From: a virus
Lineage: Duplodnaviria; Heunggongvirae; Uroviricota; Caudoviricetes
Length of the DNA stretch: 64,000 nt
IMG/VR virus record: IMGVR_UViG_3300005683_000050
Coordinates: 85,669 to 149,668 of that record
Direction: 5' to 3' (one strand)
Below, piece after piece: positions 6,069-63,929 of the stretch (within the stretch, counting starts at the first letter, position 1; every line of letters begins with the position of its first letter). The notes beneath the pieces are model-generated. The model was given only the letters and a program-made list of their open reading frames with translations, did no database searches and was not told the origin of the DNA. A program made the translations under genes and the position numbers.

Positions 6069-6085
6069 ACTGTCTGTATAGACAG
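6069..6085. repeat. CTGTCT-N4-AGACAG palindromic hairpin motif
   Basis: ACTGTCT-gtat-AGACAG between the MCP stop and the next gene, next to a second hairpin. Confidence 0.6.
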
Positions 6086-6092
6086 AAAATGC

Positions 6093-6120
6093 CGTAGAAC
6101 TTTTAGCAGCTCTACGGCAG
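6093..6120 (-). terminator. post-MCP hairpin (partial terminator/attenuator)
   Basis: GCCGTAGA-N11-TCTACGGC followed on the minus strand by ATTTTCT. Confidence 0.4.
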
Positions 6121-6205
6121 TCGTTTTCATCAAGAAACAATTGTCTCTTGTTTTTTTTCATTATGGGGCATGAGATACATGCCCCAATCGTTCATTGCGT
6201 TCAGG

Positions 6206-7225
6206 TTATGTAGAAACCTTCTGTACGCGTGTTCTCCAGCTTTCAACCAACTGACCACCAACGCGCTTGCGGGCGAGCAAGAGGGTCACGTTTGTTTCGG
6301 CATAGATTTCGCTCAGGCGTTGTACGCTCAAGCCTACGCGGTCACAAATCATGTAACCATTCAAGTCACCAAACAACAATGGATAGGCGTTAGCGGCAAT
6401 GTCTGGCGCGAATTCGTCAATCTGGATTGGCTTACCCTTAATGTTGTCAAACTGTGGTGTTGCCAAAGAACCATTGACTAGCGATGAAATAATGTATCGG
6501 TTCTGTGAATCCTTCAGTTTCTCAATTGCCTTTTGGGTAGCACTGTTCATGTACCACTTTGCCTTTGCTCGATACTGCGCTGGCAATCCAAAGTACAAGT
6601 CAAGAATACCGTCTGCGGTCAAAGCTGAACCGCTACCAGACACAATGCTCGCTGGGCCATCGCCATCAACCTGCGACAACAGACCCATTGGGCGAGCTGC
6701 GCCGTTACCGTTCAGGAACGCATCATCTTCGCCAAGCGCAAATGCTTCTGCAATCAAGTCAGACGAAATACCAACAACATCAAATGCAGAATCTTCAATC
6801 AAGTCATTGCTAACTGGCATTGAAGCCATCGCCGTGTGTACTGGAATAACGTACAGACCGAAAACTGGGTCAGTGACGCGGTGTGTGGTTGAAGACGCTG
6901 GTGATTCACCAGTCCATGTCAAGCGCACACCTGAGGTATACTTGTCGTCGGTTGTGTACTTTACGCGTGGCCACTTTGCAACATCACGTGAGGTTTGGAC
7001 AACGCGCGCGTTTGGACGAATCGCGGTCAAACCAGCAACCTTCTTGATTAATTCGACGTGATAATCTTCTGGAACTAAAACTACGCAGTGTTCCAAACTT
7101 TCGTTTGGGTATGGACTATATCTTAACGAGTCTTTAGCGCATTCTGCTGTTTCAACTTTTGCATTACTGCATCTCGTTTTTCGCGTGTAGTCTCTGAAGC
7201 TCCCGTTGCTTGTAATGCCCTGCAT
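6206..7225 (-). CDS. major capsid protein, HK97 fold (true start probably TTG near 7096)
   Basis: C-terminal ...TADGILDLYFGLPAQYRAKAKWYMNSATQ... typical HK97-family MCP; the first 100 nt of the track ORF overlap the upstream endonuclease gene. Confidence 0.75.
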   Translation of the reverse strand: MQGITSNGSFRDYTRKTRCSNAKVETAECAKDSLRYSPYPNESLEHCVVLVPEDYHVELIKKVAGLTAIRPNARVVQTSRDVAKWPRVKYTTDDKYTSGVRLTWTGESPASSTTHRVTDPVFGLYVIPVHTAMASMPVSNDLIEDSAFDVVGISSDLIAEAFALGEDDAFLNGNGAARPMGLLSQVDGDGPASIVSGSGSALTADGILDLYFGLPAQYRAKAKWYMNSATQKAIEKLKDSQNRYIISSLVNGSLATPQFDNIKGKPIQIDEFAPDIAANAYPLLFGDLNGYMICDRVGLSVQRLSEIYAETNVTLLLARKRVGGQLVESWRTRVQKVST

Positions 7226-7719
7226 TGCTCGACTATATCTAACTCCCTTTTAGTGTATGGGTGTATTTTTCTCTGCCCCATCCCACCGTAATTCGGATTT
7301 TCAAGACCTTCGTTTTTCTTTCTGAGGTCTATAAATTCCATCATTAGTCTAGCTCTCTGCTTTTTATTACCAACCAGATACGGTTCTATCTTTGGAAGTA
7401 TCTTTAATAGATTGGTCATATTTTTGGTAGCGCATTCGTGAACTGGTCGGTTGATTCCCTTTTGGAGTCTAGTCCGCATATACGGGTTGATTCCCATTTT
7501 TCTGAATATATCTTCCGATTTGGCGATTATTTCTGGGTCTGTATTCACTATGCGTAGTTCGCATTTTACCTGCGTGCCGTTTGCTCGGCGCGGGTCTGTG
7601 AAAACAGTAAACCCTAACCATCCTTCGCCATCTACAATTCCCGCTACCCATCCAAGCTCATACTCGGTTGCCTGCTGATTGTCCATTTTACTATCCTTTC
7701 GTTTGTTGCCTAGAAGCAC
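7123..7719 (-). CDS. free-standing LAGLIDADG homing endonuclease
   Basis: LGWVAGIVDGEGWLGF motif; inserted between scaffold and MCP genes. Confidence 0.55.
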   Translation of the reverse strand: MLLGNKRKDSKMDNQQATEYELGWVAGIVDGEGWLGFTVFTDPRRANGTQVKCELRIVNTDPEIIAKSEDIFRKMGINPYMRTRLQKGINRPVHECATKNMTNLLKILPKIEPYLVGNKKQRARLMMEFIDLRKKNEGLENPNYGGMGQRKIHPYTKRELDIVEQCRALQATGASETTREKRDAVMQKLKQQNALKTR

Positions 7720-7817
7720 GATTGGCTCTTAGGAGTTTCCAGCATTTAGCGAAATTTAAGGTGAACTTTTGTTCCCTTAGATTATCATATTTAATTTTTA
7801 AGTCTTACTTTACTTAC

Positions 7818-8303
7818 TTATGCCCAACCTGCATATTGGGTTAATCCACCAGCCGTATCAACGCCTTCGCTCAAGGCCTTGCGGTCATTCGGGCCTAGTT
7901 TTTCTTTGCCATTGCGGATGTACGCTTCAAAAGCAACATCGTATCCCTTTTGCTGAACAGCCAGTGGAATGTGATAGCGCAATTCCTTTTCGCCGTTTGC
8001 AGTCATAACCTTCATAGAACGCCATGACTTTGCGTCAATCGGGAAGTTTCCTTCGTCTGCGGCAGACTGTCTCCATGAGACCTGCGAAACCGATGGCTCG
8101 CTAGCTCCCAAGAATTCATCGCCACTTTCGATACGCTGTGCAAGATTTGCCTTAGCAATCAACGTATCGTACTCGCCCAGTAGTCTTTGGACGTTACCTT
8201 CTTGTTCTGCGGTAATGGCATCACCCGCCTCGAACATAATCTTTTTTGCTTCGGCGTGCTTTGACGTAGCTTCCGCCATCAGCTCTCTTCGTGTCTTAGC
8301 CAT
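7818..8303 (-). CDS. putative scaffolding protein (162 aa from ATG 8303)
   Basis: ATG 8301-8303 with AGGAG SD; charged helix-rich N-terminus; the track start at 8417 overlaps the protease gene. Confidence 0.4.
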   Translation of the reverse strand: MAKTRRELMAEATSKHAEAKKIMFEAGDAITAEQEGNVQRLLGEYDTLIAKANLAQRIESGDEFLGASEPSVSQVSWRQSAADEGNFPIDAKSWRSMKVMTANGEKELRYHIPLAVQQKGYDVAFEAYIRNGKEKLGPNDRKALSEGVDTAGGLTQYAGWA

Positions 8304-8313
8304 AAATCTTCTC

Positions 8314-9474
8314 CTAAATATGTAATGCTCGTTCGCGTATTGCGATTTCGAGTGCCAAACGACGAGAAGAAGTGAGTGCGTTTGCGATAGTATCGAGAGA
8401 GTAGGTCTCAACGACATTTTCTGTCATATCATCCTCATCTGGTTCTACCTCTATCTGCGGCTCGGCTTCTAGCAAAACATCTGTAAGCACAGAAATTGCG
8501 TCTTTCAATCTTGCCAAGTTGCGTTCCGACAAAACCCTGCCTACCTTAAATTCTTCAATTGTCAACAGGCTAGTTAGGTTGGCAAACTCAACAACGTGCC
8601 AAGATGGAGACTCTTTACCGAACTGACTGAAATGTTTTGCAAGGTGATTGTATACACCCTGCTTGTCACTATCTGTCAAAGACTTACCAGAGTCCTTCAT
8701 CAATGCGGTCATAGCTGCATTTACTCCGTCCCATATGGCAAGTCCAATGCCAGACTTTGATGGAATGTGGTGTGGGAATTGCAAATCCTCAAACGCGGAC
8801 GGTATCTCTTTTCCAGACCATCCGTAGTGTTCTGAGATTCTAATCTTTTCACCGTCATCTAAGTCTGACCATTCTTTTTCTGTAAAATCGCTCAACACTG
8901 GAGGATTCATTTTTACTGTAGTATCTGGTTCAAATCCAGTGTCTTTGAAATCAATTGCGGCTGACTTTATCAAAACCCTTGCGGCATCGTTCATCCCCCA
9001 GTTCACTGGAGAAATATCCCATAGTCGGCACTCTCTGATATTTCTGATATTAACTGTTTTTCCGTCAATACTATGTGGGGCATAGTCGTATTTGATTGCC
9101 TCAAACCCAATAGAGTTTTCGGTAATTGCGCCTTCTTTGATGCCAGTCAATACTTCATTGCCGCGCGGTGTGTTTATGTACTTTACAACACCGAGTAATC
9201 CACCCATTGCATCTGGGAATTGACCCAGATAACTATCTGGTAGCTGCTCTCTCGATATTTCCCGCAGCTCCACTGGGACTCCAATTGGAGGAGACATGGT
9301 ATCGTGTTGCCACAAAACCTTTACCCTATCCGCGCGTTCCAAAAGCGTCTTAGTAAACGCTCCGAGCAACATACGGTCTAGCGCATTATCAATATGTCCA
9401 GCAACAGAATACAGAGACGTTACTTCTCTATCTTCCGATGCAATGACTTTACTTTGAAAGTTTTTATACTCCAT
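8314..9474 (-). CDS. prohead protease (HK97/S78-like) with long C-terminal extension
   Basis: N-terminal ...RVKVLWQHD... protease-family motif; position between portal region and scaffold/MCP. Confidence 0.55.
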   Translation of the reverse strand: MEYKNFQSKVIASEDREVTSLYSVAGHIDNALDRMLLGAFTKTLLERADRVKVLWQHDTMSPPIGVPVELREISREQLPDSYLGQFPDAMGGLLGVVKYINTPRGNEVLTGIKEGAITENSIGFEAIKYDYAPHSIDGKTVNIRNIRECRLWDISPVNWGMNDAARVLIKSAAIDFKDTGFEPDTTVKMNPPVLSDFTEKEWSDLDDGEKIRISEHYGWSGKEIPSAFEDLQFPHHIPSKSGIGLAIWDGVNAAMTALMKDSGKSLTDSDKQGVYNHLAKHFSQFGKESPSWHVVEFANLTSLLTIEEFKVGRVLSERNLARLKDAISVLTDVLLEAEPQIEVEPDEDDMTENVVETYSLDTIANALTSSRRLALEIAIRERALHI

Positions 9475-12160: not shown

Positions 12161-13140
12161 ACTTTTAATTCCTTTGTTGTTAGAAACACATTTGCTCCGT
12201 CAGTGTATGCAATTGCGGCAATCTTATCTGAGCTGGCAATACTGGGAGACTGATTATTTAGTGAGTTATTTGAAATCAGTTTGGCGTTACTCCACTTCCC
12301 ATTCTTAAGGGAGATGGTGTATATTTTCCAGTTGTCGGTTGACACAGATTTTGCCTGAAAAGATACTTGTACAGCCCCTTCAAAAAATGCAACTCTAGGC
12401 CACATACTGTAAAGAAATGACGGGATAGTGCTACGCGAATCTGTAAATACCATTGTCTTGAAATCAGAGTATCTAGTCACCGCAAAAAACGGATTTCCAT
12501 ACTCGGTGTGGAATACATCTGGCGTCTGTTCCTTATGCCCGTCAGAAATCACAGACTCAACACCCCAAGTATTATTGACCGTATCGAATCTTATACTAAG
12601 AACTCCATATGGACTATTCTCGCTCCACACTATGTCAAGAAAGTTGTCTCGATATGAGATTCTTGGCATACTCCCGTCTCCAAACTTTACGGGAACATCC
12701 CAAGTTGCCCCGTTGTCTCTACTGGAAACCATATACACACCAGACGCTTGTCCTACTGGTCTAGATTGAAACACAACATATATGTTAGGCCCATCTGAAA
12801 CAATTTGCGGACACTCTGCATATGGCAAGCTGCCAGAAATCTTTTTTAGACTCCTACTTGGGGATAAGTATACAACAACATATCCCAGTGTGTCATGCTT
12901 GGATTCCCATACGATATGACGACTTCCGTTATGTGTTATGTCTGGGTAGTATCCGTGTCCAATAGATTCTCGTGTATTGTTTCCCTTACGGGACTCACAC
13001 TGCATTATATTGTCACCATCGTTCCACACAGAGAAAACCCTTCTGCCCCTTACACAGATAGAGATTTTACTATAGTGTCCTTCCCCAAGACTAACTGGCG
13101 AGTTCCATACCTTAAGCGCGTCAGATATTGCTCTTATCAT
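12157..13140 (-). CDS. BNR/Asp-box repeat beta-propeller protein (sialidase-like)
   Basis: SRDNGATWDV Asp-box (SxDxGxTW) plus repeated beta-strand-rich segments. Confidence 0.45.
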   Translation of the reverse strand: MIRAISDALKVWNSPVSLGEGHYSKISICVRGRRVFSVWNDGDNIMQCESRKGNNTRESIGHGYYPDITHNGSRHIVWESKHDTLGYVVVYLSPSRSLKKISGSLPYAECPQIVSDGPNIYVVFQSRPVGQASGVYMVSSRDNGATWDVPVKFGDGSMPRISYRDNFLDIVWSENSPYGVLSIRFDTVNNTWGVESVISDGHKEQTPDVFHTEYGNPFFAVTRYSDFKTMVFTDSRSTIPSFLYSMWPRVAFFEGAVQVSFQAKSVSTDNWKIYTISLKNGKWSNAKLISNNSLNNQSPSIASSDKIAAIAYTDGANVFLTTKELKV

Positions 13141-14443
13141 TTTGACTCTCCTCTTCCCCGCTTTGAGAATCTGATGAATTAGATTCTGGATTAACCTCTG
13201 GGCGTTGATTATCCATTGATACCTCTATGGTTCTCACGTTTCTAACATATACATCTCCGTCTGGTGTCTTTTCGAGACCCACTTCTTCGGCAAATTGATT
13301 TACTGTAATCGCTCCCTTTTCAAACGCGTTTGAAGCCCGCGCCCATCGCTTATCAATATCGTCCTGAAGTGCTGGAACTTTTGAGAAATCCCATTCCATG
13401 ATAACATTTAAGTCTTCATTCAGGTCGTTATTTATTTTATCAGAGATTCTCTTGTATTGTGGAGATAAGGTGTCCTGCCAAAACGCTTTTCTAGCAGCTT
13501 CATAATTGCTATAGGTTGACGCCTTTAACCCTATGCTTGCTCCGACCAAGATGGGAGGTGTTCTTAAACAGCTGCAAATTCTTGCCTCAGAACGAGCGTC
13601 CAGAAACTCAAATCCCATTTCTTCAAATGTCAAACCGATTTTCTGAAATTGTGCATCCGAGTCCAAAACTACTGGGTCTAGCCAATTTTCAAATCCACCG
13701 TATCGTTCCCTCCATCGAGAACGAATTTCCTCTACCTGAGACTCAATAAGCTTTTGCTTGGTTGTCAACATTCCTGGTGGAGTTCCACCCTTTTCAAAGA
13801 ACAGCTTTACAAAGTCAGTACTGGCATTGTCAACATCTCCCATCCGAGCTGCGACCTGAACGGGAGGAAGTCCATTATACATATTTGATGGGTCGAATAG
13901 CTTAAATTCAAGAATGCTGTCGGTTGGCATAACTATCGCTTGTAATCCAGGTGGGGCATAGCGGTATCCATCAATAAATGTTCCAGACGAACGTATCGGT
14001 GAAACCCAGTCTGGTCTCATAGGCCAAAGTTCTACTACTTTTCCAGACCTGTTTTTTACCTTTTCCCAGTAAGAGACTCCAGCTAAGTCCAAGTACATCA
14101 GTGTGGCACTGAAGAAGTCGAACTCTGTCATATATTTATTTGGTCGTTCTATCAACATACGAGTCGGATGGTTTTCTATAATGGCGCGTGAACGCCTGTC
14201 GCGCGCAACCAAACGTGGAATTGCTGCCGAATCCGCTTTTAAGGAAATACAGGCGAAAATTAGTTCGTTCTTTTTGAACCCATGCTGTACCGCATTCTCA
14301 AAATTCCATTTTTGGTACGATGGGGTCTGATTTGTCCATGAATTCAACATCGTAGATATTGCGTTCTGTTGCGTTGCCGCAGAACGCTTAAACGAAGAAC
14401 TGAATCCGCTTGCGAATCTGTCAAATATACTCATTAAAACCAA
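13121..14443 (-). CDS. portal protein (HK97-family-like)
   Basis: 440 aa, immediately downstream of TerL; acidic C-terminus; Phage_portal-like core. Confidence 0.7.
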   Translation of the reverse strand: MVLMSIFDRFASGFSSSFKRSAATQQNAISTMLNSWTNQTPSYQKWNFENAVQHGFKKNELIFACISLKADSAAIPRLVARDRRSRAIIENHPTRMLIERPNKYMTEFDFFSATLMYLDLAGVSYWEKVKNRSGKVVELWPMRPDWVSPIRSSGTFIDGYRYAPPGLQAIVMPTDSILEFKLFDPSNMYNGLPPVQVAARMGDVDNASTDFVKLFFEKGGTPPGMLTTKQKLIESQVEEIRSRWRERYGGFENWLDPVVLDSDAQFQKIGLTFEEMGFEFLDARSEARICSCLRTPPILVGASIGLKASTYSNYEAARKAFWQDTLSPQYKRISDKINNDLNEDLNVIMEWDFSKVPALQDDIDKRWARASNAFEKGAITVNQFAEEVGLEKTPDGDVYVRNVRTIEVSMDNQRPEVNPESNSSDSQSGEEESQNDKSNI

Positions 14444-16824
14444 ATCCCTCCCAAAGAACTATTTCCAGCAAGCTTCATATAAGCCCCACTACTTGCGTCT
14501 ACCATATCGTCGTGTACCCTCTTGTTTGGAAACAATTCGAGCTCTTGCAAATAATTTCGATTCCATCCAGCTTTAGCCAGATAAACATGTCGAGCCTCGC
14601 ACATCCCGCTAAACGGCTTTGCTCGGTGAACCTTTTGTCCAGTCATGCGAAAACCATCAAATATAAAATCTGGAAGAACATTTCTGCGATAGTGGTCAAT
14701 TACTGTCTTGCCACTTGCGCCAGGTTCTTGCTCGATATATATCTCTGTTTCATATCCATCTGCAACCGCGCATCTTTTAACCAGCTCTTCAACTTGGGAG
14801 GGAGTGCCTCGAAATTGCTGTACGTCCAGAATGTAAAATTCGTTTTGAGAAGATATTCCCATTAGCACTCCAGCTGTATAGTCGGGGTCGTTATTTCCAT
14901 AATCGGCAACTGTAGCAGCCAAGTCCCAATATCGAACTTTTCTAATAAGCGGAGGAAAGTTTTCAATTGGCGCGGTGTTCTGTCCGTCAAACCATTCCCT
15001 CTTAAACATCTCGCCTTGTTCTTCAATATCCCAGTCTCCAAACAAAAGCCTCGCTCTGGTTACTGGGTCTAACTCGGCAAGAAAACCAGCATATTCTTCT
15101 GCATTGATAGCTGGGTTGTCGTTGATAGTCGCTGGTATAAAGATGCGACCATTTGCGCGTCCCTCATCAATAAATCTCTTCTTGACCCAAACGTGACCTG
15201 GGCCACCAGGATTAGTAGCTGCCCGCATACGAAGCGGAACTTCAACGCCCTTAACGCGACGAATACGAGAAAACAGATATAAATACTGACTTTCTGTAAA
15301 CTGAGTCAATTCATCAAATCCGCAAAATTGTATTTCCGCACCCTGATAGCGCAGCTTATCTCTTTCACTCTCTAAGTATCCGAATGTTAGTGTTGCGCCA
15401 GAGGGAAAGGTGAACTGGTGCTTTTCCGAATCCCACCTTGCATCTGTTCCAGAAAGCCATTCAATCGCGCGAGACATAAGTGCTTGTGGCAACGAAAGGT
15501 CTCTGTAGGTTCTACGTAGTAAAAGAGCTGCGTATCCTGGTACGTCAACATATTGCAGGGCAGACATGAGAAGTGCGGAGCTGTTGTGCGTAACGATAAA
15601 GTCGTTTGTAAGATACATTCCGTTCGGATGGGAGACGGTTATACATCTTCCCCGCACAGTTCCGCCCTTTTCCACCCTAACAACCGCGCGGTATAGATTG
15701 TCGTCAACCTTACATCTTTCTGCCTTTCGCTTAATCCTAAACAGGGACGGCTCATTTCTATGTCTTATATATATCGTATAGGATAACCTTCCAAAGACCT
15801 TTTCTCCACTGGCGTCTCTATAGAATGGGTACTTTTCCGAAACAGTCGCAACCCCGCCCAGTGAGCGAACAATAAAACACACATCTTTGCACATTTGTTC
15901 GCTAGTTGTTGTGTAGTACACCTGCCCTCTTGCATCGGCAGTCCCATCAGTGTCTAGCAATCCTTGTAGTACGCTAAGTCTCGTTTTTACGCTTCCCATC
16001 AAAAACTCTCTGGGAACAAATTTTGTGTCCGATTTAGTTCCCATTAGTCCAAGTTTTTCTAGTTGAGACCTAACGGTTGACAAAGACTGTCCTTTGAGAA
16101 AGTACGAAAACTTACCGTCGTAGCGAAAGTCCATTCCCCTCAAAACGTTATCTCGAATGTGTTCGTGGTCATTCCCACTAATACTGACGGATTGACCAGA
16201 AATACATCCATCTCCCAGAATGTACCCCAACAGATACGGGTCTAGGTTGGATGGATTTCTGTTTGTTACGTTAAAAACTTGCTCGTGACACACTGGAATT
16301 AGAGGTCTTCTTGAAGAGCCATCGCGTTCGGAGCGAATCAGACTTTCGTCAGACCATTTCTTTAAGGTGAATGTATCTATTACCTGCGCGCTCTCCTCTC
16401 CAAACACTCTCTTGCCCTTTATCTTTTTCCCCTTACGCGCTCTCCAGCATACCCACAAATGCTCTCCGTTAACCTCTATTGAAGTTCCATCGTGAAAAAG
16501 TACCTTAAACTTTTCAAGTTCAAACACTGGATGGAGCTGTATTATCTTCGCAACCGTACCGTCTGGGTTATTTACAGCATCTCCAACGCGAAGGTCTTTT
16601 ATTTGCTTAAACCCAAACGGTGTCAGAACAAAGTCGTCAAGTTTTTGGCCTTTCCCGCCGCTTGCTGCGCCGCCAAATAGTACTTCCTTGTTTTGGGTCA
16701 ACAGAAACGCGGTTTGTTTGGGACTTGGTTTCTGAATGATGTACTTATTTAGTTTTGGAAAAAATTTGGTTACATCTATTTTGTCCCAATTGTCTCTAAT
16801 CGTTTCTGGGGTTATTATATTCAC
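14434..16824 (-). CDS. terL: terminase large subunit interrupted by an intein
   Basis: N-extein ends in FGGAASGGK (Walker A, completed by SS after the intein); C-terminal nuclease domain; 796 aa, of which about 355 are intein. Confidence 0.8.
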   Translation of the reverse strand: MNIITPETIRDNWDKIDVTKFFPKLNKYIIQKPSPKQTAFLLTQNKEVLFGGAASGGKGQKLDDFVLTPFGFKQIKDLRVGDAVNNPDGTVAKIIQLHPVFELEKFKVLFHDGTSIEVNGEHLWVCWRARKGKKIKGKRVFGEESAQVIDTFTLKKWSDESLIRSERDGSSRRPLIPVCHEQVFNVTNRNPSNLDPYLLGYILGDGCISGQSVSISGNDHEHIRDNVLRGMDFRYDGKFSYFLKGQSLSTVRSQLEKLGLMGTKSDTKFVPREFLMGSVKTRLSVLQGLLDTDGTADARGQVYYTTTSEQMCKDVCFIVRSLGGVATVSEKYPFYRDASGEKVFGRLSYTIYIRHRNEPSLFRIKRKAERCKVDDNLYRAVVRVEKGGTVRGRCITVSHPNGMYLTNDFIVTHNSSALLMSALQYVDVPGYAALLLRRTYRDLSLPQALMSRAIEWLSGTDARWDSEKHQFTFPSGATLTFGYLESERDKLRYQGAEIQFCGFDELTQFTESQYLYLFSRIRRVKGVEVPLRMRAATNPGGPGHVWVKKRFIDEGRANGRIFIPATINDNPAINAEEYAGFLAELDPVTRARLLFGDWDIEEQGEMFKREWFDGQNTAPIENFPPLIRKVRYWDLAATVADYGNNDPDYTAGVLMGISSQNEFYILDVQQFRGTPSQVEELVKRCAVADGYETEIYIEQEPGASGKTVIDHYRRNVLPDFIFDGFRMTGQKVHRAKPFSGMCEARHVYLAKAGWNRNYLQELELFPNKRVHDDMVDASSGAYMKLAGNSSLGGIWF
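15583..16650 (-). mobile_element. intein with LAGLIDADG homing-endonuclease domain inside the terL P-loop
   Basis: Hint block A-like KLDDFVLTPFGFKQIKDLRVGD; LAGLIDADG blocks LLGYILGDGCI and LQGLLDTDGT; C-terminal IVTHN followed by +1 Ser; the exact N-terminal junction is uncertain (no Cys/Ser at residue 1). Confidence 0.6.
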
Positions 16825-37348: not shown

Positions 37349-37368
37349 GACTGTCTGAATAGACAGTC
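37349..37368. repeat. CTGTCT-N4-AGACAG palindromic hairpin motif
   Basis: GACTGTCT-gaat-AGACAGTC, 5 nt 5' of tRNA-Arg. Confidence 0.6.
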
Positions 37369-37438
37369 GGGGCATGTGTTTGTATCGCGCCATACCCCAA
37401 TATCTGGATTCTGAGACATTGACATTTTGTTCTACTGT

Positions 37439-37467
37439 ATAGTATCACAAATTCAAAACTTTGTCAA
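37439..37467 (-). promoter_or_regulatory. sigma70-type promoter TTGACA-17-TACTAT
   Basis: TTGTGA precedes the -10; upstream of tRNA-Arg/Ala. Confidence 0.55.
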
Positions 37468-40541: not shown

Positions 40542-40547
40542 AAATTT

Positions 40548-40563
40548 CTGTCTACACAGACAG
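40548..40563. repeat. CTGTCT-N4-AGACAG palindromic hairpin motif
   Basis: CTGTCT-acac-AGACAG overlapping the -10 and start of the promoter at 40562-40590, 7 nt 5' of tRNA-Asp. Confidence 0.6.
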
Positions 40564-40590
40564 TCTATCACATCTTTTATTTTTTGTCAA
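40562..40590 (-). promoter_or_regulatory. sigma70-type promoter TTGACA-17-TAGACT
   Basis: upstream of tRNA-Asp/Val. Confidence 0.5.
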
Positions 40591-42816: not shown

Positions 42817-42834
42817 ATGTCTGTGCGGAGACAA
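42817..42834. repeat. TGTCT-N6-AGACA hairpin (variant of the CTGTCT/AGACAG motif)
   Basis: ATGTCT-gtgcgg-AGACAA, 18 nt 3' of tRNA-Lys. Confidence 0.4.
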
Positions 42835-45316: not shown

Positions 45317-45649
45317 TTAAAAATTCTCACCCATCTGCTTAATCATATTACAGTTAGCGCAGAGGGTTTGGTATCCTTCTGGAAGTCCAGACTTAATCAG
45401 GTATTCGTAGAAATTCCATCCAGCGAAATGTTTTCCACCGTTCGCCCGACGCTCAGAACTGCCGTTGTTATGGATATGGTCAATCTGTAGGGCGCGTATA
45501 TCAGAGAATCCGCACCGACAACACACATTGCCATACCTATCCAGAACTATCATCTTTACTCTTCTGCGTCGTTCACGAGAATAACTTCTCGTCTTTTCTG
45601 GATACTTTGCTCGGTATCTTGCATTCGCAGATTTTCTGTCTGATTTCAT
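45317..45649 (-). CDS. HNH endonuclease
   Basis: CCRCGF...IDHIHNNG...CANCN. Confidence 0.6.
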   Translation of the reverse strand: MKSDRKSANARYRAKYPEKTRSYSRERRRRVKMIVLDRYGNVCCRCGFSDIRALQIDHIHNNGSSERRANGGKHFAGWNFYEYLIKSGLPEGYQTLCANCNMIKQMGENF

Positions 45650-49156: not shown

Positions 49157-49220
49157 ACAGTAACAAATTCTCGAAACACTATGTTTCCTTAAAAGGAATC
49201 ACGGCGTTTCGATTCGTGAG

Positions 49221-49308
49221 TAGGGTAGGGGAGGCTCGAACTCCCATAAATCCAATTATGCACTAACTGTTTAGAAGACAGTGCCAGTACTACCCCCAGT
49301 ACTACCCC
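49221..49308 (-). pseudogene. aberrant tRNA-like element (Arg-TCT-like hairpin, no D arm, 12-nt tandem duplication)
   Basis: acceptor GGGGTAG/CTACCCT and T arm GGGAG-TTCGAGC-CTCCC; hairpin ACTGT-CTTCTAA-ACAGT, also a degenerate copy of the AGACAGT motif; CAGTACTACCCC is duplicated at the 5' end. Confidence 0.3.
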
Positions 49309-49481: not shown

Positions 49482-49602
49482 GTTGTTGCAGGACTGACTG
49501 GATTTTAACCATCAAGGTTATCAACCACGATACTCGTTGCAGAGCCGCTATACCTGATAAGGGAATCGTTGCATCTTCTTTTTCGCCACAGTCCTACAGT
49601 TT

Positions 49603-49620
49603 ACTGTCTATTCAGACAGT
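49603..49620. repeat. CTGTCT-N4-AGACAG palindromic hairpin motif
   Basis: ACTGTCT-attc-AGACAGT, 2 nt 3' of tRNA-Leu(GAG). Confidence 0.6.
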
Positions 49621-55974: not shown

Positions 55975-56432
55975 AAATCCTCCATAAACATTGCTACCTC
56001 AGATTCTCTGAGCGCGCGACTTCCAGCTACATTGACCACTCTAGGTCTTTCCAACTTATGCAAAAAAGAAACAATCTCAAACAATGCCCATTCATCATTC
56101 ATCGGACAAACACAGAATGTTTTACCGAAACGCAAGCAGTCGTTCATTGTCGCAATTGAGCCTCTTGTATCAAGAACAATCTTATCTGAAACAATAAGCG
56201 TCAGGTCGGAATTAATAACATTCCACATTCTACGCTCCACCAATCCTGCAACACCAGACCTTTCCGTAACAACATTGACTTTTACTTTGTCGAACGTAGC
56301 ACTCTTAAAAATTGGACTAAAATCACGACACGTATTTATAGCTGTCGAAATTCCCATATTGAGAGCAAATAGGTTTCCACCTAAATCTGCCCCCGACTGC
56401 CCTCCACTAATAACCAAAATGTCACTGTTCAC
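55959..56432 (-). CDS. Rossmann-fold nucleotide-binding protein of the LOG/DprA/MoCo-carrier (SLOG) superfamily
   Basis: N-terminal VISGGQSGADLGG glycine-rich motif. Confidence 0.35.
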   Translation of the reverse strand: MNSDILVISGGQSGADLGGNLFALNMGISTAINTCRDFSPIFKSATFDKVKVNVVTERSGVAGLVERRMWNVINSDLTLIVSDKIVLDTRGSIATMNDCLRFGKTFCVCPMNDEWALFEIVSFLHKLERPRVVNVAGSRALRESEVAMFMEDLWIWD

Positions 56433-56790
56433 TGAATAACTCCATGATTCTAACCAACTCTAATGGACGGTAATCGGTTTGCTCAACACCCTTTGTCGTA
56501 TTGCATTTCTGGCACAACGGCTGAATGTTGCATGGCGAGTCATCGCCGCCGCGTGTCGTTGCAATAATGTGGTCTGGGGTAATTCCGTTATCCTTGCTCA
56601 GGCAACGGCAACACGCTCCGTCCATATACGAAATCATCACCTTCCACCATAGTTGTTTTTTGATTCGTCGGTTTCGACCAATTATCTTATTTTGACACGA
56701 CTTGCATTTTCCAGTCGGCTTACCGCGCCATTTGTTAAATTTTTCGCGCGGCTTTTCCTGCTTACACTCCTGGCAACGTTTCAACCCCAT
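56422..56790 (-). CDS. HNH endonuclease
   Basis: CRCLSKDNG...DHIIATTRGGDDSPCNIQPLCQKCN. Confidence 0.6.
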   Translation of the reverse strand: MGLKRCQECKQEKPREKFNKWRGKPTGKCKSCQNKIIGRNRRIKKQLWWKVMISYMDGACCRCLSKDNGITPDHIIATTRGGDDSPCNIQPLCQKCNTTKGVEQTDYRPLELVRIMELFSEQ

Positions 56791-59355: not shown

Positions 59356-60354
59356 TTATTCGTCCTCGTTCTCGTCAACCGTCTTGTCTTTCAGTAGGTA
59401 CGAGTCTGAAATGTACTTTAGAATTACCCTACCAATCTTTGGGTCTCTACGCTCTTGAACGGGTCGGATAACAACACCCTCTCGGATATTGTCTCCTATT
59501 GTGCTTTTTCCATTTGCCAGACTCTTGACCTCTTCAATGGAAAACGGCATTACTCGCAAAACTGGAACAAGCTGAGCGTCATGTCTGTGCGCCAGAACAA
59601 TCATCTCCGTAAAATCAAGGTAATTCCCATCAACCATAATGTCGAATATCCTGAATCCGACACCATCTCTAACGTCGTAGGAAAATCCCTTTTGTACCTT
59701 CGCGCCGTAAATCTCTCCAAACAAAATAACGTGTTTGTGGGATTCCGAGAGAGAACCCAAAAGACTCTGTACCCAGTCTAGTTCAAATGGCATCCAGTAG
59801 ACATTGTTGCCTTCTTTGCGTCTGAGATTGTGGCTGCCAGCCATCCTCTCGCCGTCTATGTATGCCACGCGAGCATTTGTTCCGTGAATTTTCTCGGTAA
59901 CACAAACGCTCTCGCCCTCTGAAATAACTTGCGGGAAATTTCTTAGATTCTCAATGTCAGTGTATTTCAGGAATCGCGCGTCGTCAGTTTCGGTATCCCC
60001 ACCACTTAGGCGTAACGGAGATATATACTTGGTGCATCCGTAAAGGTCTGCCAGATTGTCTCCAACCTGAGAACCTGAAGGAGCAATTTGTACAAATCCA
60101 AACGAAGGCTCTCCGCGCAATGCTACAGCACGGACGCGTTGTTTGCTCAGGTATGGCGTAACTCCCATCTCATCAGAAACGCTTTGCGGCAAAACCGTAT
60201 CTGGCGGAAAATACACAACCTTATCTCCGACATTCAAAGTTCCCTTTTTGACAACAACCTGCCATCCAAGAATGTTTATAATTTCCAATCTGTCCGCGCT
60301 GGGATGAACCATTATTTCCGAGACTTCGACAACTGGAACTATTAGTGTTGACAT
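59356..60354 (-). CDS. ATP-dependent RNA ligase (Rnl family)
   Basis: nucleotidyltransferase motif I VTEKIHGTNARV (KxHGxN, typical of RNA rather than DNA ligases); 332 aa. Confidence 0.65.
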   Translation of the reverse strand: MSTLIVPVVEVSEIMVHPSADRLEIINILGWQVVVKKGTLNVGDKVVYFPPDTVLPQSVSDEMGVTPYLSKQRVRAVALRGEPSFGFVQIAPSGSQVGDNLADLYGCTKYISPLRLSGGDTETDDARFLKYTDIENLRNFPQVISEGESVCVTEKIHGTNARVAYIDGERMAGSHNLRRKEGNNVYWMPFELDWVQSLLGSLSESHKHVILFGEIYGAKVQKGFSYDVRDGVGFRIFDIMVDGNYLDFTEMIVLAHRHDAQLVPVLRVMPFSIEEVKSLANGKSTIGDNIREGVVIRPVQERRDPKIGRVILKYISDSYLLKDKTVDENEDE

Positions 60355-60928: not shown

Positions 60929-61291
60929 CTACTCAATGATAATTCGTTCGCCATTTTGTTTATTCACAACCTGAATGAGTTTTTTCGTAACCCGAATATC
61001 CATACATTCCGCCAAGTGAACACCACTTTCTGCAAAGTGTTTTCTAAGACGACCAATCGCATGGTTCTCTATTTGGTCACATCGCTGACGAGAAAGACCA
61101 GTAGCCACGCTTACCTGAGACAACGACATCGGACGAGACCCAATGTCAAGTCCTACACGATAACCAAAAACCCTGAAATCATTGTCGGAAAGAGACTCGA
61201 TTGCTCGGATAATGTCTGATTTATCAGTTGTATCTGGAGTCCCAATCACCGCATTAAATAAATTAAAAGTTGTATTGTTCATTATCTCCAT
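60929..61291 (-). CDS. small sigma-70 region-4 (HTH) protein; transcription regulator or minimal sigma-like factor
   Basis: MSLSQVSVATGLSRQRCDQIENHAIGRLRKH matches the sigma70 region 4.2 HTH pattern; only 120 aa. Confidence 0.45.
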   Translation of the reverse strand: MEIMNNTTFNLFNAVIGTPDTTDKSDIIRAIESLSDNDFRVFGYRVGLDIGSRPMSLSQVSVATGLSRQRCDQIENHAIGRLRKHFAESGVHLAECMDIRVTKKLIQVVNKQNGERIIIE

Positions 61292-61344: not shown

Positions 61345-61560
61345 TCACAATAGATTCTCAAAATCATTTATGATGGAAGCTAGTTGCTCTGGCGGAAGAC
61401 CGACCATCTCGGAAATTTTCTGCATGGTTTGGATGTCTGGTTTCTCCACATACCTGAGAACGCCATATATTCCGAAAAGAATCATGGTTGCCTCTGGATG
61501 TTTTACATGTTCTATTTTTTCTAATAACTCAAATAAATTTTCCATATTTTTTACCTCCAC
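61345..61560 (-). CDS. hypothetical protein 71 aa
   Basis: minus ORF. Confidence 0.25.
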   Translation of the reverse strand: MEVKNMENLFELLEKIEHVKHPEATMILFGIYGVLRYVEKPDIQTMQKISEMVGLPPEQLASIINDFENLL

Positions 61561-61936: not shown

Positions 61937-62090
61937 TCTTTTTTACCTCTTGGGTATCTTCTGTCCAACTTGCATCCGTAACTGTCGAATTTCCACCCTC
62001 TTCAATCAAGACAATAATCTGTAACATCAATCGAGACATAGCCTCTTCGTCCATATTGCTTTTTACGTGAAAATCAAACACTGCGTTCAT
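61872..62090 (-). CDS. hypothetical protein 72 aa
   Basis: minus ORF overlapping its neighbour. Confidence 0.25.
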   Translation of the reverse strand: MNAVFDFHVKSNMDEEAMSRLMLQIIVLIEEGGNSTVTDASWTEDTQEVKKNAKAKPKDVQRIKRNSGTSRK

Positions 62091-62818
62091 TCAATCTCTC
62101 CGAGAGATAGTCTGTCGGAATAGAGAGCCTTTTGACATTGCACATAAGACCGTCTCACAACTATTCCGCCATCGCTACCAGATATTTCTCTTGTAACTGG
62201 CTTAAAGTAAATTCCGCGCTTAGAATGCGCTGAACATTCGTCCCAATGTATGCCCCTTTCCAAAAGCGCATCAACTACTGCGCTCGAACATTTCCCTTGC
62301 ATTTCTCTTTGGGTAAACACAGACCTTCCGAGCATTGAAACAGAATTGCGTATTGCGTCCAATTCTCGCCACACCATATAATTACGCACTTCGTTCTCGT
62401 TTGGCAGAGAGAATATCCTACCATCAAAACATGGATATTGGTTTTTTGGAACTTTGTTTTCCAAAATCTTTTTTTCATCTCGGCTAAATATAGCTGTAGC
62501 CAGAGATGCCAATGAGGTAATAATCTTTGACGCCCTACCCCCAAAGTACTGTACTGTTGAATCCGAGAACCACGCAAGAGAAATCTCATCACTCTGAGTA
62601 TATGCAATGTCAGCTCTCGATTCTACACATAAAGCGAGAGTAATATCCAGCATCATGGACTGCATTCTTTTGTCAAATGGCTTGTCCATATTTCTCGTGA
62701 ATCTGCTGAAATTCCTACCATCCAAACGAACAACAGTTGCAGTATACGGAGAAGCGGAGTATCCAATTCCTTCGTATATGCTCATTCGTTCAGGCAGGGA
62801 AACATTCATTTTTTGCAT
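62087..62818 (-). CDS. Thg1-like protein (tRNA-His guanylyltransferase / 3'-5' RNA polymerase family)
   Basis: VVRLDGRNFSRF, AYTQSDEISLAWF and CFDGRIFSLP match the Thg1 catalytic motifs (RxDGxxF, SDEIS, FDGR). Confidence 0.8.
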   Translation of the reverse strand: MQKMNVSLPERMSIYEGIGYSASPYTATVVRLDGRNFSRFTRNMDKPFDKRMQSMMLDITLALCVESRADIAYTQSDEISLAWFSDSTVQYFGGRASKIITSLASLATAIFSRDEKKILENKVPKNQYPCFDGRIFSLPNENEVRNYMVWRELDAIRNSVSMLGRSVFTQREMQGKCSSAVVDALLERGIHWDECSAHSKRGIYFKPVTREISGSDGGIVVRRSYVQCQKALYSDRLSLGEIE

Positions 62819-63054
62819 TCTTCTCCGTATAGAAATCCAGAATAAAAAACAATTTCGCCCTCTGATGGTCTAACCAGGTCAACCGCAAATTGACCTAAAG
62901 ACAACCTGACAAGGTTTCCAGATTTATACAACTTAAACGTAGACATAACCGTTTTCATTGTACTGTCGCTATAAGTATGAAATTCAAAGTCCGTACTTCC
63001 CTTTCCGAGAGCGATTCTTAGAGAAGCCATGAGCGATTTAGGCAGATAAATCAT
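62806..63054 (-). CDS. hypothetical protein 82 aa
   Basis: minus ORF. Confidence 0.25.
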   Translation of the reverse strand: MIYLPKSLMASLRIALGKGSTDFEFHTYSDSTMKTVMSTFKLYKSGNLVRLSLGQFAVDLVRPSEGEIVFYSGFLYGEECKK

Positions 63055-63274
63055 AGCGCAGCTTTGTTGGCTCAGTCGTGTTTCTGTTTAAGTACCCATC
63101 TGCCGAAACAATCCCATCTGATACTTGGATATTAGTGAATATATTTACGTATCCATCTATTACTAGGTCTTGCAGACTCCAAATAATAAATGCTTTCTGC
63201 TCGATACTCATATCTGCCCAAGTAATCACCCTTTGGGTCTTGCGTGGTCTGCCACGCTTTCTTTTTTGAATCAT
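63038..63274 (-). CDS. small DNA-binding protein with AT-hook-like N-terminus
   Basis: MIQKRKRGRPRKTQ. Confidence 0.3.
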   Translation of the reverse strand: MIQKRKRGRPRKTQRVITWADMSIEQKAFIIWSLQDLVIDGYVNIFTNIQVSDGIVSADGYLNRNTTEPTKLRYDLSA

Positions 63275-63277
63275 AAT

Positions 63278-63577
63278 CTAAGTCCCTATAAATTTTTCTA
63301 TCCAAGCAGCCAGCTCTTCTGGACTTTGGAACGTTCCAATAAAAACACAATTCCCGTTTTTTACCCTAACAACGCTAAATGATTTGCCATCAGACACAAT
63401 CCCGAATAAAGAGTCACCATTATGCTCTGCGTATTCAGAGCGGTTTGAAACAGTAGCCATCTCAGAGACGATGGGCGCACTTGTAAAAACCCTGACATAT
63501 TCTTCTCTGGCAACTTCCTCTCTTGAAATATCTATACCAAGACTACTCATCTTCTTTTTATATTTAGATTGAACCAT
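63278..63577 (-). CDS. hypothetical protein 99 aa
   Basis: minus ORF. Confidence 0.3.
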   Translation of the reverse strand: MVQSKYKKKMSSLGIDISREEVAREEYVRVFTSAPIVSEMATVSNRSEYAEHNGDSLFGIVSDGKSFSVVRVKNGNCVFIGTFQSPEELAAWIEKFIGT

Positions 63578-63872
63578 ACAACTCCTCGATAATACGAATA
63601 GGATTGTCGCAAGATATTTTCGTCCCTCTTTGAGTTTTACTTACAAATGAACCGCCGAGCAATTGAATTTGGCGCATTTTGGACTGTGGATTATGTTGGA
63701 AAAATACTATATAATCTTCTCCAGTTTCTGCAATATCAACATACTCGTCGTCTGGATATAGAAAAGACTCACCGTACATTTTATTCGCCCATTTTACAAG
63801 GTATTTTCCTAAATACGTTTCCGAAATAATCCCTACCTCTTTTGGGTGACGCCGCAACTGAATCACTCTCAT
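63564..63872 (-). CDS. hypothetical protein 102 aa
   Basis: minus ORF with a promoter directly upstream. Confidence 0.3.
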   Translation of the reverse strand: MRVIQLRRHPKEVGIISETYLGKYLVKWANKMYGESFLYPDDEYVDIAETGEDYIVFFQHNPQSKMRQIQLLGGSFVSKTQRGTKISCDNPIRIIEELYGSI

Positions 63873-63878
63873 GCTCTA

Positions 63879-63908
63879 AATATATCACAAAAAAGATAAT
63901 TTGTCAAG
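63879..63908 (-). promoter_or_regulatory. sigma70-type promoter TTGACA-18-TATATT
   Basis: TTGTGA before the -10. Confidence 0.5.
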
Positions 63909-63913
63909 TCTTT

Positions 63914-63929
63914 ACTGTCTATATAGACA
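63914..63929. repeat. CTGTCT-N4-AGACA hairpin motif copy
   Basis: ACTGTCT-atat-AGACA, 5 nt upstream of the -35 of the 63879-63908 promoter. Confidence 0.5.

What the first reader, a model, noticed from the sequence alone, without database searches (positions are those of the whole stretch)
6069..63929. Recurrent palindromic hairpin ACTGTCT-N4-AGACAGT at tRNA flanks, a promoter start site and after the capsid gene
There are five near-identical copies at 6069, 37349, 40548, 49603 and 63914. Degenerate variants lie at 42817 (TGTCT-N6-AGACA) and inside the aberrant tRNA-like element at about 49245. Copies lie 2-18 nt from tRNA ends. One overlaps the -10/+1 of a promoter. One lies immediately upstream of a -35. 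One follows the capsid gene stop. An 18-bp perfect inverted repeat with a fixed 4-nt spacer fits either a dimeric DNA-binding regulator operator or an RNA processing/stability hairpin (RNase III/E site) that liberates tRNAs.
Basis: seen in the sequence. Interest (0 to 1): 0.65.

Follow-up and report, generated by a model that had tools for sequence, protein, structure and literature searches.

The report
Phage-specific 20-bp palindromic protein-binding site
A short DNA palindrome repeated at least six times in a new 150-kb, tRNA-rich phage is real and under selection, and it most likely marks where a still unidentified paired DNA-binding protein sits to control transcription, which is an ordinary kind of phage regulatory site.

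Summary
CTGTCT-N4-AGACAG occurs four times perfectly and once with one outer mismatch at the stated coordinates. No shuffle of the window reaches these counts. A sixth copy lies in a tail gene about 7 kb outside the window. Half-sites alone are not enriched; only the palindrome is.

The full consensus is TACTGTCTR-NN-YAGACAGTA. Several results favour double-stranded DNA read by a dimeric protein:
- The arms are invariant while the centre varies.
- All 18 half-sites carry a purine after TGTCT.
- Two relatives keep the arms unchanged with no covariation, while a neighbouring RNA stem covaries.
- One copy is centred on the start site of a strong promoter.
- One copy lies in an apparently untranscribed spacer at -50 of the first early promoter.
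- Two copies lie inside genes.

The RNA-hairpin reading is weaker but not excluded. All three copies in the tRNA cluster abut a tRNA end (p about 2e-4).

The site resembles a gamma-proteobacterial LexA box, differing at positions 7 and 14, but the host is unknown and the promoters look Gram-positive-like. No binding protein was identified. The suggested 60929-61291 product is a sigma region-4 look-alike.

Verdict: a new member of a known kind, of modest interest.

The parts
6069..6086 (.). Copy 1. On the - strand it reads tCTGTCTatacAGACAGt. It lies 120 nt after the capsid stop, directly after the terminator T-tract, and 50 nt before a structured 5' UTR.
   Evidence: Relatives keep it at the same place with unchanged arms.
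37350..37367 (.). Copy 2, a perfect 7+4+7 repeat (8 bp with the G-C flank). It ends 6 nt before the 5' end of tRNA-Arg(CCU) and lies about 75 nt downstream of the promoter at 37467.
40547..40564 (.). Copy 3, 6+4+6, with its centre at about +1 of the promoter at 40590. Its left arm supplies the last bases of the -10 hexamer TAGACT. It ends 6 nt before tRNA-Asp.
49603..49620 (.). Copy 4, a perfect 7+4+7 repeat (8 bp with T-A) and the full 20-mer TACTGTCTgaatAGACAGTA. It starts 1-2 nt after tRNA-Leu(GAG) and ends 8 nt before a tRNA-like element.
63914..63931 (.). Copy 5. On the - strand it reads aTTGTCTatatAGACAGt, with one C-to-T change in the outer base. Its centre is at about -50.5 of the first early promoter. 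It lies between that promoter and a 20-bp-stem hairpin, in the divergent control region.
40562..40590 (-). Sigma-70-type promoter TTGACA-17-TAGACT with a TG extension, driving tRNA-Asp and tRNA-Val. Its -10 is the weakest of the strong set, because copy 3 overlaps it.
63879..63907 (-). Sigma-70-type promoter TTGACA-17-TATATT with a TG extension. It is the first promoter of the long - strand early gene array.
6090..6119 (-). Intrinsic terminator of the capsid gene: 12-bp stem followed by TTTTCTGTCT. Its T-tract runs into the left arm of copy 1.
6007..6062 (-). Structured 5' UTR (GNRA-capped stem-loop) of the gene after the capsid gene. It serves as an internal control, because its stem shows compensatory changes in relatives.
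   Evidence: 8 pairs keep pairing after changes on both sides.
60929..61291 (-). It is a 120-aa stand-alone look-alike of primary sigma factor region 4.
   Evidence: Pfam Sigma70_r4 at 21.6 bits, below the cut-off. PDB SigA region 4 at E = 1e-4. NCBIfam RpoD/SigB C-terminal hits. Nearly an orphan.
61345..61545 (-). Weak second candidate: a 66-aa four-helix protein with a helix-turn-helix-like C-terminal half.
   Evidence: AlphaFold2 single-sequence model with pLDDT 72. The best fold matches are the NtrC4 DNA-binding domain and homeodomains, at E about 1 and TM 0.5-0.6, which is not significant. No family hit.

Best explanation
The repeat is a two-fold symmetric, roughly 20-bp site on double-stranded DNA, TACTGTCTR-NN-YAGACAGTA. 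I propose that it is bound by a dimer of a sequence-specific DNA-binding protein and acts on transcription. The protein is not identified. It is most likely phage-encoded, and less likely a host factor of LexA-like specificity.

Proposed roles by position:
- At 40548 the bound protein would cover the -10/+1 of the tRNA-Asp/Val promoter and shut it off.
- At 63915 it would sit at -50 of the first early promoter, where the UP element and the RNA polymerase alpha subunit normally act.
- At the remaining sites it would act as a roadblock or boundary to transcription coming from upstream. These sites lie after the capsid terminator, before tRNA-Arg(CCU), between the two tRNA-Leu genes, and inside a tail gene.

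Shown:
- The site is real and enriched only as a palindrome.
- It is constrained symmetrically.
- It is conserved in sequence without covariation.
- Its positions relative to promoters, a terminator and tRNAs are as stated.

Inferred:
- That a protein binds it.
- That binding is to duplex DNA.
- That the effect is on transcription.
- Which protein it is.
For: 1. Only the palindromic arrangement is enriched, not the half-sites.
2. The arms are the same sequence in six dispersed copies whose flanks are unrelated, while the central 4 nt vary.
3. The centre is R-N-N-Y in all 9 distinct sites seen: six in the phage, plus L034, L038 and L035:1739. Every one of the 18 half-sites therefore reads TGTCT-R, with p about 4e-6, or about 6e-5 when orthologous sites are counted once. 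That is a symmetric constraint expected for a dimer on duplex DNA, not for a tetraloop. The half-site centres are about one helical turn apart.
4. In relatives whose capsid is 92% and 89% identical, the post-capsid copy keeps both arms unchanged (loops AAAC and ATGT against ATAC). The terminator beside it has been replaced. A third relative (87%) has lost the site altogether.
5. fold_alignment finds no compensatory change in the palindrome but 8 compensated pairs in the RNA stem 20 nt downstream.
6. Copy 3 is centred on +1 and forces a poor -10 (TAGACT) on an otherwise consensus promoter. A transcript started there lacks the 5' arm.
7. Copy 5 lies between a 20-bp-stem hairpin followed by a T-rich tail and the -35. 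Both predicted divergent promoters point away from it, so no predicted transcript crosses it.
8. Copy 1 begins within the terminator T-tract.
9. Copy 6 and the L035 site lie inside coding sequence.
10. Sites of exactly this form are used as operators in nature. TACTGTCTAAATAGACAGTA sits 14 nt upstream of an integron integrase gene in a Halieaceae genome. From my own knowledge, that is a class of LexA-controlled promoter.
Against: - No binding protein was found. About 70 ORFs over 84 kb were scanned and none has a recognisable classical repressor domain. About 66 kb of the genome could not be read.
- Only 2 of about 22 strong promoters carry the site.
- Copies 2 and 4 are not at recognisable promoters.
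- All three copies in the tRNA cluster lie within 10 nt of a tRNA end. The chance of that is about 2e-4 under uniform placement in non-tRNA sequence, and by my estimate about 3e-3 if only non-coding sequence is allowed. A pure operator model does not predict this.
- Two of the three arm deviations are C-to-T changes in the 5' arm, which would keep U-G pairing in sense RNA.
- Copy 2 extends its stem with a G-C pair where the others have T-A.
- Every copy can fold, at -4.9 to -11.7 kcal/mol.
Confidence: 0.5

Rival explanations
1. The element works as an RNA hairpin in the sense transcripts. It would be a processing, stability or attenuation signal in the polycistronic tRNA and late transcripts. 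Examples would be a stop for exonucleases, or a structural guide for the endonucleases that trim the neighbouring tRNA. It would resemble the stem-loops of the PeSL cassettes of T4-type phages.
For: - All copies lie on the transcribed strand and fold at -4.9 to -11.7 kcal/mol.
- The three copies of the tRNA cluster are 1-8 nt from a tRNA or tRNA-like end.
- Copies 1, 2 and 4 directly follow another stable RNA structure: a terminator, a GGGG...CCCC hairpin and a tRNA acceptor stem.
- Two imperfect copies keep U-G pairing.
- The phage invests heavily in tRNA and RNA repair genes: RtcB, an RNA ligase, a Thg1-like protein and an RlaP-like protein.
Against: - There is no covariation, although a neighbouring stem covaries.
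- The stem sequence is conserved and the loops are variable. That is the reverse of what RNA-binding proteins usually read (my own knowledge).
- The symmetric R-N-N-Y centre has no RNA rationale.
- Only copy 1 has a T-rich tail.
- The stems are too short for RNase III.
- Copy 5 is not crossed by any predicted transcript. Copy 3 is cut in two by its own start site. Copy 1 starts in the terminator tail.
- Only 3 of 45 tRNAs have a copy.
- There is no Rfam match.
Confidence: 0.22
2. The sites are SOS boxes. Host LexA, of the Gamma/Betaproteobacteria type that reads CTGT-N8-ACAG, would bind them and tie part of phage transcription to the host's DNA-damage state. This is a special case of the DNA-operator reading with a named protein.
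For: - The consensus TACTGTCTatatAGACAGTA differs from the E. coli box TACTGTATATATATACAGTA only at positions 7 and 14 (my own knowledge of the box).
- CTGT-N8-ACAG occurs 5 times against 0.76 expected.
- I rebuilt a heterology-index matrix from 25 E. coli operators recalled from memory. With it, copies 4, 5 and 1 score 6.4, 7.6 and 8.1, inside the range of the training operators (1.2-9.1). They are the three best 20-mers of the whole window.
- The identical 20-mer type precedes an integron integrase gene in a Halieaceae genome.
Against: - C at position 7 and G at position 14 are invariant in all sites.
- Copies 2, 3 and 6 score 10.8-13.1, outside the range of the training operators.
- Scanning 596 Gb of bacterial genomes for the 20-mer gave only 42 hits in scattered taxa and no lineage that uses it as a regulon consensus.
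- Nearly all phage promoters carry a TRTG motif before the -10. From my own knowledge (Voskuil and Chambliss 1998), that is typical of Gram-positive hosts, whose LexA reads GAAC-N4-GTTC.
- The host is unknown, and the matrix rests on memory.
Confidence: 0.12
3. The palindromes are DNA sites for recombination, nicking or mobility rather than for transcription. They could be linker sequences at which tRNA and ORF cassettes are exchanged, or targets of one of the phage's HNH endonucleases.
For: - The copies sit at module borders: capsid to next gene, between the duplicated tRNA-Leu genes, and at the start of the early array.
- Sites are gained and lost between close relatives.
- At least four HNH-type genes are present.
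- PeSL elements were proposed to mediate this kind of shuffling (PMC2839356).
Against: - There is no homology flanking the copies.
- The element is far shorter than the roughly 100-bp PeSL cassettes.
- Homing-endonuclease targets are normally long, asymmetric and single-copy (my own knowledge).
- No rearrangement break point was seen at a copy. The post-capsid copy is kept while the DNA beside it is replaced.
Confidence: 0.08

Closest known systems
LexA operator (SOS box) of Gamma- and Betaproteobacteria, TACTGT(AT)4ACAGTA
   Same: Both are 20-bp two-fold symmetric sites with the CTGT-N8-ACAG core and TA flanks. One copy overlaps a -10/+1, as many SOS boxes do. Three copies score like real E. 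coli operators with an approximate matrix.
   Different: Positions 7 and 14 are invariably C and G here, where SOS boxes have A/T. Most copies are not at promoters. The host and its LexA are unknown. The promoters look Gram-positive-like. No bacterial lineage was found that uses this exact consensus.
Operators of dimeric helix-turn-helix phage and bacterial regulators, such as lambdoid CI/Cro operators of 14-18 bp and lux-box type 20-bp palindromes with CTG-N10-CAG
   Same: The arms are conserved and the centre is free. The half-sites are one helical turn apart. Sites are placed over a -10/+1 or next to a -35.
   Different: No cognate regulator gene is identified next to a site or anywhere in the 84 kb read. 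The sites are scattered over at least 70 kb rather than clustered in one control region. Several lie beside tRNA genes or inside genes.
PeSL (promoter-early stem-loop) cassettes of T4-type phages (PMC2839356)
   Same: A large virulent-type phage has many near-consensus sigma-70 promoters in a plastic region of small ORFs. A recurring stem-loop can lie upstream of the -35 or overlap the -10.
   Different: PeSL stem-loops are G/C-rich (GGGG...CCCC), act as terminators, and are part of a composite of about 100 bp that accompanies most early promoters. Here the palindrome is 18-20 bp and lacks a U-tract. It accompanies only 2 of about 22 promoters and also occurs far from promoters.
Roadblock operators inside transcription units, such as CcpA or CodY sites within operons of Bacillus (my own knowledge)
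   Same: These are operator-like palindromes downstream of promoters or inside genes. They would fit copies 2, 4 and 6.
   Different: This is purely an analogy. No transcript data and no binding protein are available here.

Membership tests
LexA / SOS box (Gamma-/Betaproteobacteria type) | 16-bp core CTGT-N8-ACAG | tested here: met
   Four of the six phage copies match exactly and two have one mismatch in the outer C.
LexA / SOS box (Gamma-/Betaproteobacteria type) | AT-rich interior with A/T at positions 7 and 14 of the 20-mer | tested here: not met
   All copies have C at 7 and G at 14. Of the 25 E. coli operators recalled, none has C at 7 and one has G at 14.
LexA / SOS box (Gamma-/Betaproteobacteria type) | Heterology index within the range of operators that bind LexA | tested here: inconclusive
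   Three copies score 6.4-8.1 and three score 10.8-13.1, against 1.2-9.1 for the training set. The matrix was rebuilt from memory.
LexA / SOS box (Gamma-/Betaproteobacteria type) | The host encodes a LexA of this specificity | not testable with these tools
   The host is unknown and there is no close cultured relative. The TRTG -16 motif in most promoters points rather to a Gram-positive-like host (plus my own knowledge).
Dimeric DNA-binding-protein operator (generic) | Two-fold sequence symmetry with conserved half-sites about one helical turn apart and a free centre | tested here: met
   The half-site is TACTGTCTR, and 18 of 18 half-sites have a purine at position 9.
Dimeric DNA-binding-protein operator (generic) | Overlap with core promoter elements of regulated genes | tested here: inconclusive
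   Two of six copies do: one centred at +1 and one at -50.5. Four do not.
Dimeric DNA-binding-protein operator (generic) | A cognate binding protein | tested here: inconclusive
   No classical repressor domain was found in about 70 ORFs. There are two weak candidates, at 60929-61291 and 61345-61545. About 66 kb of the genome was not read.
Conserved structured RNA element | Base pairs maintained by compensatory changes among relatives | tested here: not met
   The 7 pairs are invariant in 3 sequences and broken in the fourth. The neighbouring 5' UTR stem has 8 compensated pairs. Only four sequences were available.
Intrinsic (Rho-independent) terminator | G+C-rich stem followed by a U-tract | tested here: not met
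   Only copy 1 has a T-rich tail. Copies 2-4 are not listed by the scan. Copy 5 was read directly and has no T-rich tail. The stems have 3 G-C pairs.
RNase III processing site | About two helical turns (roughly 20 bp) of double-stranded RNA | tested here: not met
   The stems are 6-9 bp.
PeSL cassette (PMC2839356) | A composite of a strong sigma-70-like promoter and a terminator-type stem-loop, conserved over about 100 bp and accompanying early promoters in general | tested here: not met
   Only 2 of about 22 strong promoters have the palindrome. The flanks are not conserved. There is no terminator tail.
Any Rfam family | Reaches the family's gathering score | tested here: not met
   Only tRNA matches were found in the window.

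The most novel reading that the evidence does not exclude
The palindrome may have two linked roles. As DNA it would be an operator. Transcribed next to tRNAs, it would give a hairpin whose stem (ACUGU/ACAGU followed by CU) copies the anticodon arm of the phage's own tRNA-Arg(UCU). It could then be a recognition or decoy element tied to the phage's unusual tRNA and RNA-repair programme (45 tRNAs, RtcB, an RNA ligase, a Thg1-like enzyme). Alternatively, host LexA could gate expression of selected tRNAs and the first early promoter in a virulent-type phage.
Probability: 0.1. Interest if true: 0.6.

Novelty: new member of a known kind. Interest (0 to 1): 0.3.

Why it matters
If the site is an operator, it gives a direct handle on the regulatory circuit of an uncultured 150-kb phage lineage with one of the largest known tRNA sets. 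It identifies which promoter and which tRNAs are switched, and it provides a bait sequence for fishing out the regulator. If the LexA-like resemblance is real, it would also point to the host group and link tRNA supply to the host's stress state. As it stands, this is an ordinary kind of element, a phage-specific regulatory palindrome, in an interesting genome.

Tried and rejected
- **Sequencing or adapter artefact.** CTGTCT/AGACAG are the tips of the Tn5 mosaic end, a lead that came up. Rejected, because only 6 bp match and the copies are present in an independent ENA assembly, whose overlap with the JGI-derived window is identical, and in related contigs.
- **Close relatives in cultured phages.** None found.
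- **IMG/VR capsid relatives.** At up to 66% identity they lack the motif and are a different, G+C-rich lineage.
- **IMG/VR scan for ACTGTCTRNNYAGACAGT.** It gave 14 single hits and no other phage with several copies.
- **Bacterial genome scan for the 20-mer.** It gave 42 scattered hits and no enriched taxon.
- **Exact look-ups.** The portal protein and P0001 were not on record.
- **Relatives of the tRNA-adjacent copies.** The neighbouring proteins have no close homologues other than the phage itself, so conservation of copies 2-5 could not be tested.
- **Late-promoter idea for the conserved GAGNCCTTGA repeats after copy 1.** Rejected. The repeats are local and form a covarying RNA stem.
- **NrdR box, cre, FNR/CRP and resolvase half-site resemblances.** I considered these from memory and dropped them because spacing or key bases do not fit.
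- **Literature search for the motif.** It returned only transposon-end and primer hits. A search for the run accession found nothing.
- **Structure of the 66-aa candidate.** The fold matches were not significant.

Full report
**What the window is**

All long ORFs and all 45 tRNA genes lie on the - strand. The window holds a structural module of a tailed phage: major capsid 6206-7225, protease 8314-9474, portal 13121-14443 and large terminase 14434-16824. This is followed by about 40 kb of small ORFs and tRNA genes driven by about 22 near-consensus promoters of the form TTGACAa-N17-TATAAT. Most of these promoters have TRTG just before the -10.

The window also encodes RtcB, an RNA ligase, a Thg1-like enzyme, a class II ribonucleotide reductase, ThyX, SSB and RNase H. 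There is no nucleotide match and only distant protein matches to cultured phages.

The same phage exists as a JGI contig of 149,668 bp and as an independent ENA contig of 149,834 bp. Through the ENA contig I could read 10 kb beyond each end of the window (L042, L044). About 66 kb stayed out of reach.

**The observation**

- Four are perfect CTGTCT-N4-AGACAG. Two of those are 7+4+7.
- The fifth has a C-to-T change in the outermost base.
- No shuffle of the window reaches these counts.
- Among the 22 perfect 6+4+6 hairpins in the window, this arm is the only one that recurs.
- The half-sites by themselves occur at about the expected frequency, so selection acts on the palindrome as a unit.
- A sixth copy, ATGTCTACATAGACAGTA, lies in a tail gene outside the window (L044:17773).
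- The 10 kb on the other side holds no further copy.

The two 'degenerate variants' are not members. One has a 6-nt spacer and is the tip of another, longer hairpin. The other is the anticodon arm of tRNA-Arg(UCU).

**Anatomy**

Aligned in the sense orientation, the sites give TACTGTCT-RNNY-AGACAGTA.
- The central four bases vary: ATAC, ATTC, GTGT, GAAT, ATAT and ACAT, plus AAAC, ATGT and ATTC in relatives.
- They always start with a purine and end with a pyrimidine. On either strand, every one of the 18 half-sites therefore reads TGTCT-R.
- That is a two-fold symmetric constraint on the so-called loop.
- The flanks beyond 20 bp are unrelated.

**Context**
- *Copy 3.* Its centre falls on the predicted start site of the promoter at 40590. 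The palindrome supplies the last bases of the -10, which as a result is the poorest -10 of the strong set (TAGACT).
- *Copy 5.* It ends 6 nt before the -35 of the first promoter of the early array, so its centre is at about -50.5. On its other side is a hairpin with a 20-bp stem followed by a T-rich tail. The two predicted divergent promoters lie further left and point away. No predicted transcript crosses copy 5.
- *Copy 1.* It starts inside the T-tract of a 12-bp-stem terminator after the capsid gene.
- *Copies 2 and 3.* They end 6 nt before the 5' ends of tRNA-Arg(CCU) and tRNA-Asp.
- *Copy 4.* It starts 1-2 nt after tRNA-Leu(GAG) and ends 8 nt before a tRNA-like element.

Random placement of three sites in the non-tRNA sequence of that region puts all three within 10 nt of a tRNA end with p of about 2e-4.

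**Relatives**

Only the capsid region has close relatives in the databases.
- In contigs whose capsid is 92% identical (L034-L037) and 89% identical (L038), the palindrome sits at the same place with both arms unchanged and a different centre.
- The adjoining terminator hairpin has been replaced and the rest of the spacer has diverged.
- In a third lineage (87%, L039/L040) the site is gone.
- L035 has an extra site, TTGTCTATTCAGACAGT, in the end of a gene where the window has none.
- RNAalifold on the four spacers finds no compensatory change in the palindrome. It does find eight compensated pairs in a GNRA-capped stem-loop 20 nt downstream.

A true RNA structure in the same spacer thus evolves by covariation, while the palindrome is either kept letter for letter or lost. 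More distant capsid relatives, IMG/VR as a whole and 596 Gb of bacterial genomes show no other genome that uses the motif repeatedly.

**Interpretation**

Five features are what a dimeric protein reading duplex DNA produces:
- identical arms;
- a free but symmetrically constrained centre;
- half-sites one helical turn apart;
- absence of covariation;
- presence inside genes.

Three copies are placed where the main predicted transcript cannot contain the whole hairpin. RNA-binding proteins usually read loops and bulges rather than Watson-Crick stems (my own knowledge). I therefore commit to an operator-type DNA site that acts on transcription:
- occlusion of the -10/+1 at the tRNA-Asp/Val promoter;
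- interference or contact at -50 of the first early promoter;
- roadblock or boundary functions elsewhere.

My confidence is about 0.5. No binder is known, only 2 of about 22 promoters carry the site, and the closeness to tRNA ends is better explained by an RNA-level role. I keep that RNA reading as the main rival (0.22).

**Who binds**

Pfam, PHROGs and NCBIfam scans of about 70 ORFs found no classical repressor.
Such a domain reads TTGACA as a monomer. Each half-site, YAGACA, does resemble a -35 hexamer, so a test is still worthwhile.
- *61345-61545 product.* This 66-aa protein has a helix-turn-helix-like model, but its fold matches are not significant.
- *Host LexA.* The consensus differs from the E. 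coli SOS box only at positions 7 and 14. With a heterology-index matrix rebuilt from memory, three copies score like genuine operators and are the best three 20-mers in the window. The same 20-mer type precedes an integron integrase gene in a Halieaceae genome. Against this, C7/G14 are invariant here and atypical for LexA, no bacterial lineage uses this consensus, and the TRTG motif of the phage promoters suggests a Gram-positive-like host whose LexA reads another box. I give the LexA reading 0.12.

**Comparison and verdict**

The element works like a phage or host operator. It also resembles in placement, though not in sequence, size or generality, the stem-loops of the PeSL cassettes of T4-type phages (PMC2839356). 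It fails the defining features of terminators, RNase III sites, Rfam families and PeSLs, and one defining feature of SOS boxes. It is a new member of a known kind.

The interest is modest. It lies mainly in the genome that carries the element and in the unexplained tie to tRNA ends.

Noticed in passing
window 63945-63995 (L042:9862-9908): A perfect long inverted repeat, GCGAAGTTCGCGTTAACGCG-TTAAT-CGCGTTAACGCGAACTTCGC (stem up to 20 bp), followed by a T-rich tail. It lies in the divergent intergenic region just upstream of copy 5, next to an (AT)n tract. It could be a strong bidirectional terminator or insulator, an origin, or another operator.
   Followed up: partly
window 60929-61291 (-): A 120-aa protein that is essentially region 4 of a primary sigma factor on its own, with changed recognition-helix residues (SRQRCDQIEN against TRERIRQIEN). 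It is nearly an orphan in 1.8 billion representative proteins. It could be a decoy or competitor for the -35 element or the beta flap.
   Followed up: partly
window 24536-61651 (-), plus 31319-32533, 59356-60354, 62087-62818, and L042:7593-8372: 45 tRNA genes, almost none with an encoded CCA, occur together with RtcB, an RNA ligase, a Thg1-like guanylyltransferase and an RlaP-like nucleotidyltransferase. This amounts to a full tRNA supply and repair kit in one phage.
   Followed up: no
window 49220-49308 (-): tRNA-Arg(UCU) is 89 nt long because its 5' end carries a 12-nt tandem duplication (GGGGTAGTACTG twice). Its anticodon arm, ACTGT-CTTCTAA-ACAGT, shares the outer five stem pairs and the following CT with the palindrome.
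   Followed up: partly
window 49482-49594 (-): A tRNA-like element of about 110 nt lies between the two near-duplicate tRNA-Leu genes. It has a GGACTG...CAGTCC acceptor-like stem and a GGTTAAAATCC T-loop-like segment. Neither ARAGORN nor Rfam calls it. It may be a decayed or intron-containing tRNA.
   Followed up: no
window 6007-6062 (-): The 5' UTR of the gene after the capsid gene forms a GNRA-capped stem-loop flanked by GAGNCCTTGA repeats. In three related lineages 8 base pairs are kept through compensatory changes. It is a likely translational or stability element.
   Followed up: partly
window 6165-6189 and 37369-37398 (-): Two hairpins have the same arms, GGGG(C/T)ATG...CATGCCCC. One lies after the capsid stop codon and one directly abuts copy 2. 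They recall the GGGG...CCCC stem-loops of PeSL cassettes.
   Followed up: no
window 23600-63907 (-): About 22 near-consensus promoters TTGACAa-N17-TATAAT are present. About 19 have TG at -15/-14 and about 14 have the full TRTG motif. This architecture is typical of Gram-positive hosts and is the only host clue found.
   Followed up: partly
window 6206-7719 (-): The closest relatives have a 444-aa capsid protein with a 154-aa N-terminal extension. This phage has a 296-aa capsid protein, preceded by an unrelated 198-aa ORF. The N-terminal (scaffold-like) domain has therefore been exchanged for a separate gene.
   Followed up: partly
window 63866-63879 (-): The predicted start site of the first early promoter falls on or next to the ATG at 63872 of the first early gene, so this mRNA may be leaderless.
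   Followed up: no
L079:6679-6698 (Halieaceae MAG JAZBOY010000092.1): TACTGTCTAAATAGACAGTA lies 14 nt upstream of an integron integrase gene (TIGR02249, 414 bits). It is probably a real SOS box with C at position 7 and G at position 14.
   Followed up: partly
L042:1-515 and L042:1569-2381: Just outside the window there is a DNA N6/N4 methyltransferase that seems to carry a LAGLIDADG-type insertion (faint hit). There is also an ORF with an IS110-family transposase domain (24.7 bits).
   Followed up: no
window 25695-26027, 45317-45649, 56422-56790 (-), and L042:9030-9677: At least four HNH or Endonuclease VII-type nuclease genes are scattered through the early and tRNA region.
   Followed up: no
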